A program made the position numbers. DNA of 64,000 nucleotides from Leucoraja ocellata (lineage: Eukaryota). Every line of letters starts with the position of its first letter. Positions within the stretch are counted from its first letter, which is position 1. Below are positions 39,001-45,000 of the stretch, piece by piece. The stretch covers positions 7,006,001 to 7,070,000 of the forward strand of contig JAWMAR010000075.1 in the NCBI GenBank assembly GCA_036785375.1, read 5' to 3'.

Positions 39001-42000
39001 ATTATGAAAAGGCACTACATTAATGCACAAGGCAAAATTTAATGTCAAATGAATGCAGTAAGAAACACATCTGTAGACACTGGAGAAATGATATATTGCT
39101 CAGTCCCAGGAACAAATACAACAGAGATGGGTTCACAACTGAGAAGGTCAAATCAAATGAGGAAGTGAATCAACAGACGGACTCTACAACACCATTCAAA
39201 TTTGTGAAAAGTGATGACACATGTTTTGTTCAAAGCTGGAAAGCAGTGTGGTATATTTGTTTACTCATGCCAACATATAGGAAGCACCATATCCAGAGAA
39301 ATGTTTGTTTTTAGTTAGATCAGATATCTTTGTTGAAAGAAAATTCATTATTGCAGTACATGGAGCATACTAGAATTTCAGACATATACAAAGTCCAGTT
39401 TAGGATGTACTACACTTGCCAAAGTGAGACCATTCCTTTCATCTTTGCTCAAGGCCACCAGGCACCATATCAATTGGAAATTTCACCTTGTCTCACCCAC
39501 TTCACCTTCTCACTGGTAATATCCTATGGGAATCTTACATCCTGAAAATTTATGAATATTGATTTCATTGATCTTCTCTTCCCCCCCCCCCCCCTCCCCC
39601 AACACTCCAGTAGTCATATGAAGAGAAATACCCTGAGGTGAAGCATTCATGACCTTTTCTTTCAAAACCACACAGACTCTGTAATCAGTTTCTATTTTCC
39701 CTAGTGCATATTTTCCTCTCACCTTGATGATGGATTATTACCATTCAGATGAATGGATTTTTAAATGGTAAAAAACTCAAGGGAGAAATGAATCTTTGGA
39801 GTTTTGGACCCTGCCGGCTGTGGCTTAATTGATTTAAGACACAGGTCAATAGCTTAATATCATTCAAATGAAGTTCATTAATTTATAATAACTTATTTTG
39901 CCATTTATTTTATTTAAATCGTGTAACTTTTGCAATCTTCGTCATGAGGCTTTGGCAGACTGAATGTATCTTGTATAATCATTAAAATACATCAGAATCA
40001 GGAGTTGACATTTCAGTCTTTTAAGCCCATTCTGCCATCCATCAAGGGCACGGGTAATCTTCTATCCCTGTGTCATTTTCATGAACCATTCTCATATTAG
40101 GTGATCCCCTGAATTTTTGTAATGAAATTATGACCAGGTGTTGAGGATTCAGGTCAATGAAAGAAGAAAGAACATTTCAGGTCAACAATCAATTGTCTTT
40201 ATTATAGTGAAATACAGCAACAACATTAATAAAGTAGCAACCTCCACTCTTTTGTGTCTTCACTGATTCGATCAACGAGTCTCATGGCCTTGTGCCCATC
40301 GGAAACTCTTGTATTTGCGATGGCTGGGTCTGGAAAATTAGAACAATGGCACCATTTTGCATCACAGTTCAAGATGCATTCTCTCAGTTTAGTTTAATTT
40401 ATTGTCATGTGTACCGAGGTACAGTGAAACGTTTGTGTTGCGTACTAACCCAGTCAGCAGAAAGACAATACATGATTACAATCGATCCATTTACAGAATA
40501 TAGATACATGATAAGGGAATAACGTTTAGTGCAAGGTAAAGCTAGCAAAGTCTGATCATGAATAGTCCGAAGGTTGCCAAAGCGGTAGATAGTAGTTCAG
40601 CACTGCTCTCTGGTTGTGATAGGATGGTTCAGTTGGGATGAAACTGGAAACAGCTGGGAAGAAACTGTCCCTGAATCTGGTGGTGTGCCTCTCTCGTCCC
40701 CGAAGGTAAAGTCCTGTTAGATCACTCACAACATGCACTTACACAACTATTAATTCCCACTTCTCTAACCTTCAAACAAAAGTTGACTTTGTTTTTAAAA
40801 CTTGCTGTTCTTCTTTGTGCTGAAACATTACTAACTTTATTACATCAGGCACCAAGCTACTCTCAGCTGTCTCTGAAGAAGGGTCTAGACCCGAAACGTC
40901 ACCTATGTCTTTTCTCCATAGATGCTGCCTCACCCGCTGAGTTTCTCCAGCATTTTTTGTCTACTTTCAATTTTTCCAGCATCTGCAGTTCCTTCTTAAA
41001 CAAAGCTACTCTCGGCTGTCTCTGAGACAAAATATGTTTTTTAAATTCCTTTTGCTAAATTGCAGGTGGCTCTATGGTTTATTGGTTATTCTAAGTGAGC
41101 CCCAGCATTTTCCCAAGCACCTAATAGTTTTTCTATGCAGGTCTGTTTGCTTGACATGTTGCGCTGTTAGCAACCAACTCCATCTTTGCTGAGAAGCTTG
41201 TTTACAATAGATATTGTGTTTCAATATCGAGTAATTTATCAATCTTTGATTTGGATAAACTTTACAGCGTTTGGGAGTAGAACGTTCCGGGGCTGTCAAT
41301 TCACTTTGAGATTAATTCCTCATCAGCCCTGATTGGCTATCCTCTGAGGCTTGACCATCTGGATCTAGGCTCTTCCTCTAGAGGAAACATTCCCCCGGAA
41401 TAGAAAGATTAAACGAGAATTTACCGTTTGAAGTTTGATCTTTATTTTATGAGAAGTTGAGGTGAGGGATTACGTGAAGAGCCCACTAGCCCGCATGCGC
41501 ATCAATCTTCAGAGCAGCTGTATGAAACCACAGACTAGTTGCTGACCTAAGCTATAGAAGGATTAACGAGCCTAGAACTACCGAATTATCTTTATGAGAA
41601 GTTGGGTTGCGAGTGGAGGGCACGTAATCCCTCACTTCAACTTCTCATAAAATAAAGATCAAACTTCAAACGGTAAGTTCTCGTTTAATCTATCTTATTT
41701 CATTTTGAAGTCATGTGAGTGATTACGTGAAGACTTCAAAGCTCTATGGTTTCATGCAGTAACCCAATCTGTGTGTGAAACACTTAAACAGATAAACCAT
41801 TAATGGTAGGAAAAAACATGGGTTATTAATATCATGATGCTAACTTGCATCCATGGCCATTGTTCTTAACCGGACCATAGTCGCAATAGACTGTTGTTAG
41901 ACAATAACTCATGCAACACCGTGCTGAATTCTATCTGCAAATACCCAGACATATTCAACCAAATGTTATAATTTATTAACCCGCATTAAATAAGCCTCAT

Positions 42001-45000
42001 GCTGTGTGATGAAAGGGAAAATCCATTCTATTGGCTGCTGATGAGCCATCAGCAATATCTTGAGACTATTGAATACCAAAAATAACTATCTTTCATCTCA
42101 TAGGTACTAGCAAACTGAGTGCACTTGTATACCTAATGACATCCCCGATCTCATTTTTGCATATTACCTAAAACTCGATGACTCAATGCCCTTTAATCTG
42201 AGTAGGGCAGCATAGGCTTTCACCACTAGCTTTGTTATCAAATCAGCAGAATCTGTGCCTTATGTGTATAGATATGGCAGCGTATACAACTACAAGATCG
42301 ATTCTCTAAATCGGGTAAATTGCAGAAAGCCAATCATCCATCTTAAACTGGGTAAGTAAACCCATGATCAGATTAGCCAAATGCTAACCCGATTCGGCCT
42401 GCACCATGTTTCTGTAATCTTGAAAAGTATCAGAAATATACCCCTCTAGTCCTTAGCCAGACCACTTATCCTCAGATGAGCTGTCACTGATTGCACTCGG
42501 AACCCCTGTTCCTCTATTGATCCTACGGAATCCTAAGCACTAGGATTCAGGCACATAGACATGTTCGGAGTCATGTTCGGAGTCAGTTCCATACTGATCT
42601 CTGACACTCTCTTAGAGTGGGAGAAATAGTGCACCCCGAACCAGGCGTTGTCACATGCATATGCCTCGGACTGCCTGTGCATGCTTCCATAACACAGAGC
42701 ATATTTTGTGACACCATCTCCGATATTCTTTTGAGTGGGAGGAATATTCCATCCCTGAACCAGAGGTAGCTACAGGCATATGACTTGAACTGACTGTGCA
42801 TGCTTCCGTAATACGGAGCATAATATTTGGCACCATCTCCGTCACTTCTTTCATCCGAGTGAGAGGACATATGCAACCCTGAACCTGGAGCTGCCTCAGG
42901 CAGGTGTGCATATACTTTGGCACCATCTCCATCACCCCGTTCATCCGAGTGGGAGGAATATTGCAACCCTGAACCAGGAGCTGCTTCAGGCATATGTGCA
43001 TATACTTTGGCACCATTTCCACCACTCCTTTCATCCGAGTGGGAGGAAAATTGCAACCCTGAACCAGGAGCTGCTGCCTGACAAGCCTTCGTAACACAGA
43101 GCATTTCGTGTGCCACCAACTGATTCATCAGATGTTCTAATTGAGACAAACGCCCAATCACATCTGCCATAGATGTCCCAAATCATCCGACAAGACTAGT
43201 CCCACAGCCTTGGCTTTGACTTTGCCCCGACTCGGGGTTGTCAGGCTGCTCCCTTCAGCAGCCGAACCTGGACTAGCTGTGCAGATCGGTGATCTGTTGG
43301 TATCATCATTATACTTACCAGACAGGTTGCACCTGCTAGTGACTCCGAGTCCTTGCTCCCTTCTGGAGCCCCAACGGAGTATTACAGGGAAGGACTGGAG
43401 CGCCTCTGGACCCCATATGACTCGGATGAACCGGCATTATAATCGGAGTCACCTCTTCCCGATAGTCTGCGAGACATAGTGGGAGAAATACTGCAACCCT
43501 GCTAGGTGATGTCACATCATATTACGCTCATATGATGAAAAGAAGCATATCCCCATAAATCAGAGATTCGACTGCTCTATCGATATCCACATAGTTGGAG
43601 TCTCTTATAAAAGAATCTCCAACAGTCCCCTCTGGTGAGCGGAAATTACCATGACGCCACCAAGTGTAGCTCCCACAGGTGTCTGATAGGAGCTTCCTAA
43701 GCCAGGAGCTCTGGACTGCAATGGCAAGTCCAATTTCACTACACCATTGGTGTATGTGTTAATAAAAGTCCTTTGTAATTATCATTTTTAATATAAACTT
43801 TGTTGGAATGATAAGATATATCGTTATATTGCCAAAGAATTAAACATGACCTTTGAATGCTATCTACCACGATAGTCACAAACGTGACCGAGTGGCGATC
43901 GCTATAAATGCCAACTCTATAGCCGCCCAAAAATAAAGCATACACTATATGCTGCTGCAGCGTAGCTGAGCCCCTCAGCTAGCAGTAACTATGTTTAAAA
44001 ATTGCTCGGTGCTACGGCAGCTGAGCTTACCTGAGCGGTAGCTCCTGGCTGTGGCTATTTTTAACTCACCGGCTGCTGCGAAACCTCCTGCAGCGATTGT
44101 TGACCTGGCTACACCGGCAGCCACAATTTATGAATCCCAGCTCCTATGGAGCCCCACGGCGGCCTCCAATTTCAGCCGCATGCTCCCGTGCGGAGCTTGA
44201 ATGGCGGCCCAAACCTCGGCCACCTCCATCAAACTACTCCGGGCCCGCTATTGCAGCGGCCCGCTGGAAGTAAAATTGACTTACCTGCCAGAACAGTTTC
44301 GAACTGCTCCGACTCGCGCGCTATGCGTCCGCGTATTTGCGGGCTGGCGGGCTCTTCACGTAGTCACTCATGTGACTTCGAAATAAAATCCACTGTTGCG
44401 AAAGTGAGACAATTCTTTTCATGTCAGCTCATATTGTACACAGTGTATCAGATGCAGACTCACCAAGACTCTATATCAATCTTTACATTTGACACCACTT
44501 GTGATGAAGGCCAATATTTCATTTCTGTAGGAAAAGACTGCAAATGCTGGTTTTCACCGAAGATAGACACAAAATGCTGGAGTAACTCAGCGGGTCAGGC
44601 AACATGTCTGGATAGAAAGAATGGGTGACATTTTGGGTCGAGAACCTTCTTCAGACTGAGAGTCAGGGGAAAGGAAACGAGGGACATAGAAGGGTAAGGT
44701 GCGAAAAACAAGAGATCAAAGGGGATGAAGTTCAAGGAAAGTGTAGAATAGATCATTGTTAGCTAGGGGAAGCTGTCAACAAGGCATACTATGTAAAATT
44801 TAATCAGGAGGACAGTCAGACTGGTTGGAGAACTTGGATGGGGGAGGGATGGAGAGAGAGGAGAAGCAAGGTTTATTTGAAGTTAGAGAGGTCAATATTC
44901 ATACCGCTGGGTTGTAAGCAGCCCAAGCTAAATATGAGGTGCTGTTCCTCCAATTTGCGTAGAGCCTCACTCTGACAGTTGAGGAGGCCCAGGATAGAAA

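What the first reader, a model, noticed from the sequence alone, without database searches (positions are those of the whole stretch)
41399..44389. Non-autonomous DIRS1-like retroelement with intact circularisation signals
Seen: 41621-41690 is a near-perfect reverse complement of the left terminus (41406-41476). It runs directly into ~41695-41733, the reverse complement of the right terminus (44354-44389), so it is an internal copy of the end-to-end circle junction. The termini are also inverted repeats of each other and no TSD is evident. Known: this ITR+ICR layout defines DIRS1 tyrosine-recombinase retrotransposons. At only ~3 kb, with no recognisable RT/RNase H/YR ORF, it keeps cis signals only. 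Inference: a trans-mobilised non-autonomous DIRS family, which is rarely described.
Basis: partly seen in the sequence, partly recalled or inferred. Interest (0 to 1): 0.68.

Follow-up and report, generated by a model that had tools for sequence, protein, structure and literature searches.

The report
Protein-less DIRS1-like retroelement copy
A 3-kb stretch has the full end-and-junction repeat layout of a DIRS1-type retrotransposon but no recognisable genes, so it is probably a passenger element copied by the enzymes of a complete relative elsewhere in the genome.

Summary
41402-41476 is the reverse complement of 41621-41695 (72 of 75). 44353-44389 is the reverse complement of 41697-41733 (32 of 37). 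The two ends are 52-nt inverted repeats. Each end matches its own half of the internal copy better than it matches the other end (28/33 and 32/33 against 22-23/33). The ends carry the trinucleotide ATT and the junction carries AAT, and there is no target duplication. This is the published DIRS1-like layout (PMC3266345). The junction copy lies at the 3' end of such elements, so this one reads on the minus strand.

No RT, RNase H, methyltransferase, recombinase or gag signal was found in the element, and no recombinase or DIRS-type RT anywhere in the window. The 195-aa ORF lies on a tandem repeat and has no true relatives.

End-to-junction divergence is only 8 of 112, so coding remnants should still be visible. 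The copy was therefore probably already gene-less when it inserted.

Sibling copies and an autonomous partner could not be searched for, because no eukaryotic DNA collection was available. Gene-less DIRS elements are already named in print (TOC1, DIRS-N1). Modest interest.

The parts
41399..44389 (-). Whole element, 2,991 bp. It reads 5' (44389) to 3' (41399) on the minus strand.
   Evidence: Bounds come from the outer limits of the terminus/ICR matches and the ATT trinucleotide at both ends. No other copy is in the window.
41399..41401 (-). Terminal trinucleotide, ATT in element sense. It matches the first three bases of the element and is complementary to the junction AAT in the ICR.
   Evidence: (flanks). 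PMC3266345 passage: 23 of 28 annotated elements begin and end with NTT, most often ATT.
41402..41443 (-). Right extension (rE), 42 nt. It is matched only by the right ICR, not by the other terminus.
   Evidence: Alignment A1. I3 covers it and I4 does not.
41441..41446 (-). AATAAA in element sense, at the rITR/rE boundary. A possible poly(A) signal that would leave transcripts short of the 3' end.
   Evidence: one of only 2 minus-sense AATAAA in the element. Function is inferred, not shown.
41444..41495 (-). Right (3') inverted terminal repeat, 52 nt. Divergent part 41444-41476, conserved part 41477-41495.
   Evidence: I4; local alignment; conserved part 17 of 19.
41496..41620 (-). 125-nt spacer between the ICR and the right ITR. 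It holds a third, degenerate ITR-like copy at 41587-41625.
   Evidence: D6 (62% to 41442-41480).
41621..41695 (-). Right ICR, 75 nt, complementary to rE plus the divergent part of the right ITR.
   Evidence: I3; 72 of 75; hairpin, z = -16.9.
41696..41699 (-). Circle-junction point. AAT in element sense (41697-41699) plus one extra base (41696) compared with a direct join of the ends.
   Evidence: Read.
41697..41733 (-). Left ICR, 37 nt, complementary to the first 37 nt of the element.
   Evidence: I5; 32 of 37, all differences transitions.
41734..42596 (-). Internal sequence with no recognisable coding signal. A+T-rich (GC 0.36-0.45).
42597..43075 (.). Internal tandem array. About two units of 118-124 nt, then three of 90 nt, sharing a 24-38-nt core.
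   Evidence: searches (TRF: 42615-42841 period 119; 42818-43074 period 90; D1-D5), (90-nt units 67-76 of 90 alike).
42583..43170 (-). 195-aa ATG ORF lying on the tandem array. Judged not to be a gene.
   Evidence: No relatives. The only library hits are repeat proteins aligned period on period. No Pfam family. The 118-124-nt units are not multiples of three.
43478..43501 (.). Isolated sixth copy of the 24-nt core of the tandem unit.
   Evidence: D3 (92%).
43799..44337 (-). 5' internal region, CpG-rich (observed/expected 0.74-1.17 against 0.41 for the window; GC up to 0.57). A possible promoter or leader.
   Evidence: Function is inferred.
44338..44389 (-). Left (5') inverted terminal repeat, 52 nt. 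Conserved part 44338-44356, divergent part 44357-44389.
   Evidence: (I4, I5).

Best explanation
This is one copy of a gene-less (non-autonomous) DIRS1-like tyrosine-recombinase retroelement lying on the minus strand. In element sense it reads:
- 52-nt left ITR
- about 2.6 kb of non-coding interior (a CpG-rich 5' part, then a tandem array, then an A+T-rich part)
- left ICR and right ICR, back to back
- 125-nt spacer
- 52-nt right ITR
- 42-nt right extension

How it most likely works follows the published DIRS-1 model. None of these steps is shown here.
1. A transcript that lacks the extreme ends is copied into single-stranded cDNA by a reverse transcriptase supplied by an autonomous DIRS1-like element elsewhere in the genome.
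2. The two cDNA ends anneal side by side on the internal complementary region, which serves as the template or splint that restores and joins them into a circle.
3. The partner's tyrosine recombinase crosses the 3-bp junction with an identical ATT in the target, so no target duplication arises.

Shown here: the architecture, the absence of coding signal and the low divergence between the ends and the ICR. Inferred: that the copy was already gene-less when it integrated, and that it was mobilised in trans. My confidence that the architecture is of DIRS1 type is about 0.9. The 0.6 given below is for the whole statement, including 'gene-less at insertion, mobilised in trans'.
For: Architecture:
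- The ICR equals the reverse complement of (right end | left end) (I3 and I5).
- Over the 33 columns shared by all four repeats, each end is closer to its own ICR half (lTer-lICR 28/33, rTer-rICR 32/33) than to the other end or the other half (22-23/33). This is the 'divergent ITR' signature described in PMC3266345.
- 12 of 14 columns at the divergent/conserved boundary are invariant in all four repeats. The paper reports a core of at least 10 nt shared by both ITRs and both ICRs.
- The sizes add up as in the paper's Table 3: rICR 75 = rE 42 + divergent ITR 33. They resemble the mollusc entries (divergent 30-36, conserved 31-36, rE 46-49, ICR 39-46/67-88).
- Start ATT, end ATT, junction AAT, no duplication. 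ATT/ATT/AAT is the commonest pattern in that table.

No genes:
- 0 of 51 stop-to-stop segments of at least 30 aa overlapping the element gave a retroelement family. 8 of 51 had rows at E <= 1 (10 rows, best E 0.043), all below the curated cut-offs and all unrelated families.
- The same kind of screen found a LINE RT at 31500-32303 with E 3.5e-30, so it can see decayed RTs in this window.

Gene-less at insertion:
- The ends and the ICR are expected to be identical at integration ('theoretically 100%', PMC3266345). They now differ at 8 of 112 sites (7 transitions; K2P 0.076). That is too little decay to erase an RT or recombinase.
- The 28 annotated autonomous elements are 3,974-6,283 bp (mean 5,160), with long ORF overlaps in half of them. 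That they hold almost no non-coding interior, and so could not leave 2.6 kb of non-coding interior as leftover, is my inference from those figures, not a statement of the paper.
- The tandem units differ more from each other (14-23 of 90) than the ends do from the ICR. The array therefore probably predates this insertion.

Mechanism in the literature:
- The ICR is essential for DIRS-1 retrotransposition, and the DIRS-1 RT made cDNA from a truncated element in trans (PMC7192593, abstract and passages).
Against: - Only one copy is visible. No sibling and no autonomous partner is in the 64-kb window, and none could be looked for elsewhere.
- The conserved ITR part is only 19 nt and the whole ITR 52 nt. 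This is below the published range (ITRs 66-316 bp; conserved part 31-304 bp).
- The ICR has one base more than a direct join of the ends.
- The lTer/lICR match (45.5 bits) barely exceeds the best of 100 shuffles (44.6), and the ITR match on its own does not. Their weight comes from their positions and mutual consistency, not from score.
- DIRS gag proteins have no Pfam model that I know of (recalled), so a decayed gag in the 5' part cannot be excluded by Pfam alone.
- In Dictyostelium the truncated test element gave cDNA but no completed retrotransposition. Full trans-mobilisation of a DIRS element has therefore not been demonstrated in the passages I read.
Confidence: 0.6

Rival explanations
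1. A once-autonomous DIRS1-like copy lost its genes at this locus after insertion, through one or more large deletions and later additions such as the tandem array. It is a single dead relic, not a member of a gene-less family.
For: - Only one copy is seen.
- Degenerate and internally deleted DIRS copies are common: about 200 incomplete against 40 full copies in D. discoideum, and large fragment deletions in S. kowalevskii (PMC3266345 passages). 36 of 75 Xenopus families are degenerate (PMC9210276 passage).
- The ITR is unusually short, which could itself reflect damage.
Against: - No RT, RNase H, methyltransferase or recombinase remnant is left on either side of any putative deletion, although the ends and the ICR have diverged by only 8 of 112.
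- All cis repeats at both ends survive in correct register.
- 2.6 kb of non-coding interior needs extra insertion events, and it matches none of the window's other repeats.
Confidence: 0.27
2. A cut-and-paste DNA transposon or foldback-type element, with terminal inverted repeats and sub-terminal copies of them, that only resembles the DIRS layout.
For: - Terminal inverted repeats of 52 nt, with two further internal copies of the same core (I4, I6, D6).
- No coding capacity, as in MITE-like elements.
- A Tc1-like element with long inverted ends is present elsewhere in the window (886-1113 / 2291-2525; HTH at 1225-1557).
Against: - No target-site duplication at either candidate boundary.
- The 42-nt extension outside the inverted repeat is copied only in the internal region.
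- Each end co-varies with its own internal half rather than with the other end.
- The internal copies are arranged exactly as the reverse complement of an end-to-end join. A transposase-binding sub-terminal repeat has no reason to be arranged this way.
Confidence: 0.08
3. A local inverted duplication (the hairpin 41402-41695) lying by chance near weak matches at 44338-44389. No mobile element is involved.
For: Taken alone, the matches involving 44338-44389 score about as high as the best of 100 shuffles (45.5 and 42.8 bits against a maximum of 44.6).
Against: - The weak matches fall exactly at the inner edge of the strong hairpin arm, in the required orientation.
- They share the same 12-of-14 invariant core.
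- They end on the same trinucleotide.
- The shuffle mean is 25.5 +/- 3.6 bits, so 45.5 is more than 5 sd above it.
Confidence: 0.05

Closest known systems
DIRS1-like retrotransposons (order DIRS), as annotated in Piednoel et al. 2011 (PMC3266345; passages and Table 3 seen). The closest in repeat geometry are the mollusc entries AcaDIRS1/2 and LgDIRS1/3.
   Same: - ITRs with a divergent and a conserved part.
- Two abutting ICRs at the 3' end.
- A right extension matched only by the right ICR.
- ATT / ATT / AAT trinucleotides and no target duplication.
- A core shared by all four repeats.
- Sizes: divergent ITR 33, rE 42, ICRs 37 and 75 nt.
   Different: - No gag, RT/RNase H, methyltransferase or tyrosine-recombinase coding signal.
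- 2,991 bp, against 3,974-6,283 bp for the 28 annotated elements.
- Conserved ITR part only 19 nt.
- One extra base at the junction.
- Interior made of a CpG-rich leader, a tandem array and anonymous sequence.
- Sequence relatedness to any named family could not be tested, because no comparator sequences were at hand.
[quoted passage not shown]
   Same: A gene-less element of the DIRS order that varies in copy number among strains, so presumably moved by a partner's proteins.
   Different: - It is a green-alga element.
- From recall, not from any call: TOC1 has the split-direct-repeat (PAT-like) arrangement, not ITRs plus an ICR, and is about twice as long.
'DIRS-N1', a zebrafish repeat-library name (passage in PMC5400779)
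   Same: By the usual naming convention (recalled), '-N' marks a non-autonomous family of the DIRS order in a vertebrate. Such families would then already be catalogued.
   Different: I saw only the name.
LARD and TRIM elements (gene-less derivatives of LTR retrotransposons), named in PMC8498967 (passages)
   Same: The same logic: terminal cis signals are kept, the coding interior is replaced by anonymous sequence, and copying is done by a partner's proteins.
   Different: Direct LTRs, integrase-made target duplications, and no ICR.
Ngaro and PAT-like elements (the other tyrosine-recombinase retrotransposons)
   Same: Terminal sequences are repeated internally next to each other, and there is no target duplication (PMC8969392 and PMC7192593 passages).
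   Different: Their repeats are split direct repeats (A1-interior-B1-A2-B2). Here the terminal repeats are inverted and the internal copy is complementary.

Membership tests
DIRS1-like retrotransposons | Inverted terminal repeats, which may be imperfect | tested here: met
   41444-41495 against 44338-44389: 52 nt, 75% (I4). Shorter than the published 66-316 bp.
DIRS1-like retrotransposons | A short internal complementary region at the 3' end of the interior. Its 5' part is complementary to the start of the 5' ITR and its 3' part to the end of the 3' terminus. | tested here: met
   In minus-strand sense, lICR 41733-41697 pairs with 44389-44353 (32/37) and rICR 41695-41621 pairs with 41476-41402 (72/75). 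They abut, 125 nt upstream of the right ITR.
DIRS1-like retrotransposons | An extension outside one ITR that is matched only by its ICR | tested here: met
   rE 41402-41443 (42 nt) aligns only with the rICR. The published rE range is 9-75 bp.
DIRS1-like retrotransposons | The divergent ITR part follows its own ICR rather than the other ITR (50-85% between ITRs) | tested here: met
   28/33 and 32/33 for own pairs. 22/33 (67%) between the ITRs and 22-23/33 for the other cross pairs.
DIRS1-like retrotransposons | A short core of at least 10 nt shared by both ITRs and both ICRs at the divergent/conserved boundary | tested here: met
   12 of 14 consecutive columns are invariant in the four-way alignment.
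DIRS1-like retrotransposons | The same trinucleotide at start and end, complementary to a 3-bp circular junction in the ICR | tested here: inconclusive
   ATT / ATT / AAT is present, but only if one extra base (41696) is allowed in the ICR. A 3-bp coincidence is weak evidence on one copy.
DIRS1-like retrotransposons | No target-site duplication | tested here: met
   The flanks share nothing beyond the trinucleotide. No empty site was available for comparison.
DIRS1-like retrotransposons | Encodes RT/RNase H (with a methyltransferase domain) | tested here: not met
   0 of 51 segments of at least 30 aa overlapping the element match any such Pfam family at E <= 1. 0 of the 6 in-element segments of at least 85 aa.
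DIRS1-like retrotransposons | Encodes a tyrosine recombinase | tested here: not met
   Same screens. None in the rest of the window either (139 segments of at least 85 aa; 150 of the 160 segments of 60-84 aa).
DIRS1-like retrotransposons | Encodes a gag-like ORF1 | tested here: inconclusive
   The only long minus-strand ORF (195 aa) has no true relatives. No gag profile or comparator was available.
Non-autonomous derivative of a DIRS1-like family | Several copies with the same gene-less interior at different sites | not testable with these tools
Two exact-pattern scans of prokaryotic contigs found 0 matches, which says nothing either way.
Non-autonomous derivative of a DIRS1-like family | An autonomous partner with matching ends and ICR in the same genome | not testable with these tools
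   None in the window. The rest of the genome is not available.
Ngaro / PAT-like elements | Split direct repeats (A1 ... B1 A2 B2) | tested here: not met
   The terminal repeats are inverted. The only direct family touching the ends (D6) is the ITR core seen again in the ICR.
TIR DNA transposon / MITE | Terminal inverted repeats flanked by a target-site duplication | tested here: not met
   TIRs are present, but no duplication at 41402/44389 or at 41444/44389.
LTR retrotransposon derivative (LARD/TRIM) | Direct long terminal repeats | tested here: not met
   No direct terminal repeat in 40500-45500.

The most novel reading that the evidence does not exclude
The copy represents a vertebrate family of entirely protein-less DIRS1-like elements. 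They would carry only a 52-nt ITR pair, a 42-nt extension and a 113-nt junction copy, plus their own CpG-rich leader and tandem array, and would have been amplified wholly in trans by another element's reverse transcriptase and tyrosine recombinase. That would give a natural definition of the minimal cis requirements of tyrosine-recombinase retrotransposition. It would also show that RT/recombinase-based surveys undercount this order.
Probability: 0.45. Interest if true: 0.45.

Novelty: new member of a known kind. Interest (0 to 1): 0.32.

Why it matters
Surveys of DIRS1-like elements find copies through their RT, methyltransferase and recombinase domains (the ReDoSt method, PMC3266345 passages). 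Gene-less derivatives are invisible to such surveys. If this copy has siblings, three things would follow:
- The DIRS enzymes act in trans in a vertebrate-type genome.
- About 250 nt of terminal and junction repeats would be the only family-typical sequences such an element retains.
- The share of the genome owed to this order would go up.

As a single copy it is mainly a clean textbook example of the ITR/ICR geometry.

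Tried and rejected
- **The 195-aa minus-strand ORF (42583-43170) as a gag or other gene: rejected.** The word-indexed search gave 38 candidates and none at E <= 0.01. The full scan of 1.84 billion representatives gave 4 hits at E <= 0.001. Two of them are repeat proteins of unrelated families (LRR_6/TPR/ankyrin; He_PIG) and two have no Pfam family. The best alignment is 29-32% identity in a 30-residue register, repeat on repeat. 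Part of the underlying DNA array has periods of 118-124 nt, which are not multiples of three.
- I replaced them with 51 stop-to-stop segments.
- **The RT at 31500-32303 as a possible partner: rejected.** Its best solved relatives are R2 and LINE-1 ORF2 proteins (13 distinct chains), so it is of non-LTR type.
- **An empty-site test using the flanks: no result.** I compared the flanks separately with the window. Only the SINE-like repeats 370 and 130 nt away from the ends have other copies, and the immediate flanks are unique.
- **Longer ITRs: none found.** A gapped local alignment gives the same 52 nt.
- **Other DIRS-like layouts in the window: none found** among 10 low-copy inverted pairs.
- **Rfam at gathering thresholds: 0 matches in the window.**
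- **Two exact-pattern scans of prokaryotic genome contigs: 0 matches.** The aim was to catch host-DNA contamination. This is the wrong collection for the question and counts as no evidence.
- **Literature searches.** Searches for gene-less ITR/ICR-type DIRS elements gave only TOC1 and the name DIRS-N1. PMC8498967 uses 'non-autonomous' for TRIM, LARD, MITE and SINE only.

Full report
**1. The observation**

- The repeat finder on 40500-45500 reports 41402-41476 against 41621-41695 (75 nt, 96% complementary), 41697-41733 against 44353-44389 (37 nt, 86%) and 41444-41495 against 44338-44389 (52 nt, 75%).
- By direct count these are 72 of 75, 32 of 37 and, for the inner 'conserved' ITR part, 17 of 19.
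- The long arm pair scores 123 bits. The best of 100 dinucleotide-preserving shuffles of the element scores 44.6 (mean 25.5, sd 3.6). The 37-nt pair scores 45.5 bits, only just above that maximum.
- The ITR pair scores 42.8 bits over a 33-nt core, below the best shuffle. The two weaker matches therefore count because of where they lie, not because of their scores.
- As single-stranded DNA, 41399-41740 folds into the expected 75-bp hairpin: -94.4 kcal/mol against -30.9 +/- 3.75 for shuffles, z = -16.9, and 0 of 100 shuffles fold as well.
- The two internal arms abut with one base between them.
- No target-site duplication is present. The flanks share only the trinucleotide AAT, at 41399-41401 and at 44387-44389.

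**2. Anatomy against the published definition**

I compared the anatomy with passages of three papers: Piednoel et al. 2011 (PMC3266345), the curation guide PMC8969392 and Malicki et al. 2020 (PMC7192593). They define the DIRS1-like layout as follows:
- imperfect ITRs;
- two abutting ICRs at the 3' end of the interior, the first complementary to the start of the 5' ITR and the second to the end of the 3' terminus;
- an extension outside one ITR that only its ICR matches;
- a 'divergent' ITR part that follows its own ICR, and a 'conserved' part shared by the ITRs;
- a short core common to all four repeats;
- the same trinucleotide at both ends, complementary to a 3-bp circular junction;
- no target duplication.

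Because the ICR sits at the 3' end, this element must be read on the minus strand. The parts are then:
- left ITR 44389-44338
- interior 44337-41734
- left ICR 41733-41697
- right ICR 41695-41621
- spacer 41620-41496
- right ITR 41495-41444
- right extension 41443-41402
- final trinucleotide 41401-41399

The four-way alignment and its counts show the divergent-ITR signature. Over the 33 columns shared by all four repeats, left end against left ICR is 28/33 and right end against right ICR is 32/33. Every cross pair is 22-23/33. Twelve of 14 columns at the divergent/conserved boundary are invariant in all four.

The sizes are additive, as in the paper's Table 3: right ICR 75 = extension 42 + divergent ITR 33. 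They resemble the mollusc entries most. [quoted passage not shown]

Departures from the published layout:
- The ICR has one extra base (41696).
- The conserved ITR part is only 19 nt, and the whole ITR 52 nt (published ITRs 66-316 bp).
- The element is 2,991 bp, against 3,974-6,283 bp for the 28 annotated elements.

**3. The interior**

Nothing coding was found.
- Of 139 stop-to-stop segments of at least 85 aa in the window, 6 had any Pfam row at E <= 0.01, and none of those 6 lies in the element. The six in-element segments gave nothing.
- Of 51 segments of at least 30 aa overlapping the element, 8 had rows at E <= 1. These were 10 rows, best E 0.043, all under the curated cut-offs and all unrelated families.
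- The screen is able to see decayed retroelement genes here. It found an RT at 31500-32303 (E 3.5e-30), whose nearest solved relatives are R2 and LINE-1 ORF2 proteins. That RT is therefore of LINE type and is not a DIRS partner.
- A further 150 of the 160 segments of 60-84 aa gave 0 rows at E <= 0.001. Seven in-element segments had been scanned, and three at 62413-63350 were left out.
- No tyrosine recombinase is visible anywhere in the window.

The 195-aa ATG ORF on the minus strand (42583-43170) lies on a tandem array. The array spans 42615-42841 with period 119 and 42818-43074 with period 90, and a sixth isolated core copy lies at 43478-43501.
- The ORF has no relatives among proteins of similar length.
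- In the scan of 1.84 billion representatives it has only 4 hits. They are long proteins, two of them of unrelated repeat families, and the one I aligned (P0001) matches period on period.
- I do not count it as a gene.

The 5' 600 nt in element sense are CpG-rich (observed/expected 0.74-1.17 against 0.41 for the window). One of the two minus-sense AATAAA hexamers of the element sits at the right ITR/extension boundary. Both features fit a leader or promoter and a transcript that stops short of the 3' end, as in the DIRS-1 model. This is inference.

**4. How it most likely works**

The model of Cappello and colleagues, as summarised and partly tested in PMC7192593, runs as follows. A sub-genomic transcript is reverse-transcribed. 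The cDNA ends anneal to the ICR, which restores and joins them. The circle is made double-stranded. The tyrosine recombinase inserts it at a trinucleotide identical to the junction. That paper shows that the ICR is essential, and that the DIRS-1 RT produced cDNA from a truncated element in trans. Completed trans-retrotransposition was not obtained there.

On the plus strand of this window, which would be the cDNA sense, the 5' end pairs with 41621-41695 and the 3' end with 41697-41733. The two terminal bases would then lie one base apart on the ICR, which is the required splint geometry. With no genes of its own, the element could only have used a partner's RT and recombinase.

**5. Gene-less before or after insertion?**

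The ends and the ICR should be identical at integration ('theoretically 100%'). They now differ at 8 of 112 positions, 7 of them transitions, K2P 0.076. That amount of decay would not hide an RT or a recombinase. The annotated autonomous elements are 3,974-6,283 bp, with long ORF overlaps in half of them. From these figures I infer that they have almost no non-coding interior to leave behind, so 2.6 kb of non-coding interior is hard to explain as leftover. The 90-nt tandem units differ more from each other (14-23 of 90) than the ends do from the ICR, so the array probably predates this insertion.

I therefore favour 'already gene-less when it inserted' (0.6) over 'lost its genes on the spot' (0.27). 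A DNA transposon with sub-terminal repeats (0.08) and a chance arrangement (0.05) fit the extension, the co-variation and the missing target duplication poorly.

**6. What stayed unchecked**

That test is a genome-wide search for same-length siblings and a longer partner.
- The only DNA collection open to me holds bacterial and archaeal genomes. Two exact-pattern scans there found nothing, and this says nothing either way.
- No curated repeat library and no DIRS protein comparator was available, so sequence relatedness to any named family and a gag test are open.
- I saw no supplementary files. Additional File 3 of PMC3266345 and Table S2 of PMC9210276 may list degenerate or gene-less families.
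- The host organism was not determined.
- The N run at 63649-63784 was left as it is.

**7. Comparison and novelty**

It works like a DIRS1-like element and passes the structural membership tests. It fails the coding ones, so it is a non-autonomous derivative rather than a full member. Gene-less DIRS-order elements are known:
[quoted passage not shown] That TOC1 has split direct repeats is my recollection, not a call result.
- The zebrafish library name DIRS-N1 (passage in PMC5400779). The meaning of '-N' is also recalled.

Five full-text searches found no description of a protein-less ITR/ICR-type element. The searched library omits most subscription journals and repeat-database reports.

Verdict: a new member of a known kind, a clean structural example, and of modest interest unless a family is shown.

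Noticed in passing
window 40872-41003 and 44522-44659 (inverted to each other), and many other sites, e.g. 21365-21495, 24560-24689, 34801-34928, 46884-47012, 52744-52837: A SINE-like repeat of about 130 nt is abundant in the window. The copy left of the element has 17 other matches at 74-90% identity. Two copies bracket the element in inverted orientation (I2), which looks coincidental.
   Followed up: partly
window 886-2525: Tc1/mariner-like remnant. It has inverted arms at 886-1113 and 2291-2525 (82%) around an ORF with Sleeping-Beauty-type and other HTH matches at 1225-1557 (+).
   Followed up: no
window 31500-32303 (-): Reverse-transcriptase domain (RVT_1, E 3.5e-30) of non-LTR type. Its best solved relatives are R2 and LINE-1 ORF2 proteins. 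Neighbouring minus-strand ORFs suggest a longer, broken LINE.
   Followed up: partly
window 18781-19428 (+): A 216-aa segment matches Pfam ALKBH8_N (E 2.1e-14, above its cut-off). From recall, this model also picks up C-terminal parts of some LINE proteins. Not examined further.
   Followed up: no
window 22752-23545 and 58434-59128: Low-copy palindromic or inverted-repeat structures, including self-complementary stretches at 23164-23286 and 58434-58557. Long ORFs on both strands with no Pfam match.
   Followed up: no
window 36261-36839 vs 44811-45391, and 44562-44825 vs 45399-45662: Just right of the element lies an inverted pair of 265 nt (87%). A 599-nt stretch there is repeated in inverted orientation 8 kb to the left (78%). 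This is another repeat family, unrelated to the element.
   Followed up: no
window 41587-41625: A third, degenerate copy of the ITR core (62% to 41442-41480, D6) lies directly against the inner edge of the right ICR and forms a small imperfect palindrome with it. Its meaning is unknown.
   Followed up: partly
window 63649-63784: A run of 136 N. Left untouched.
   Followed up: no
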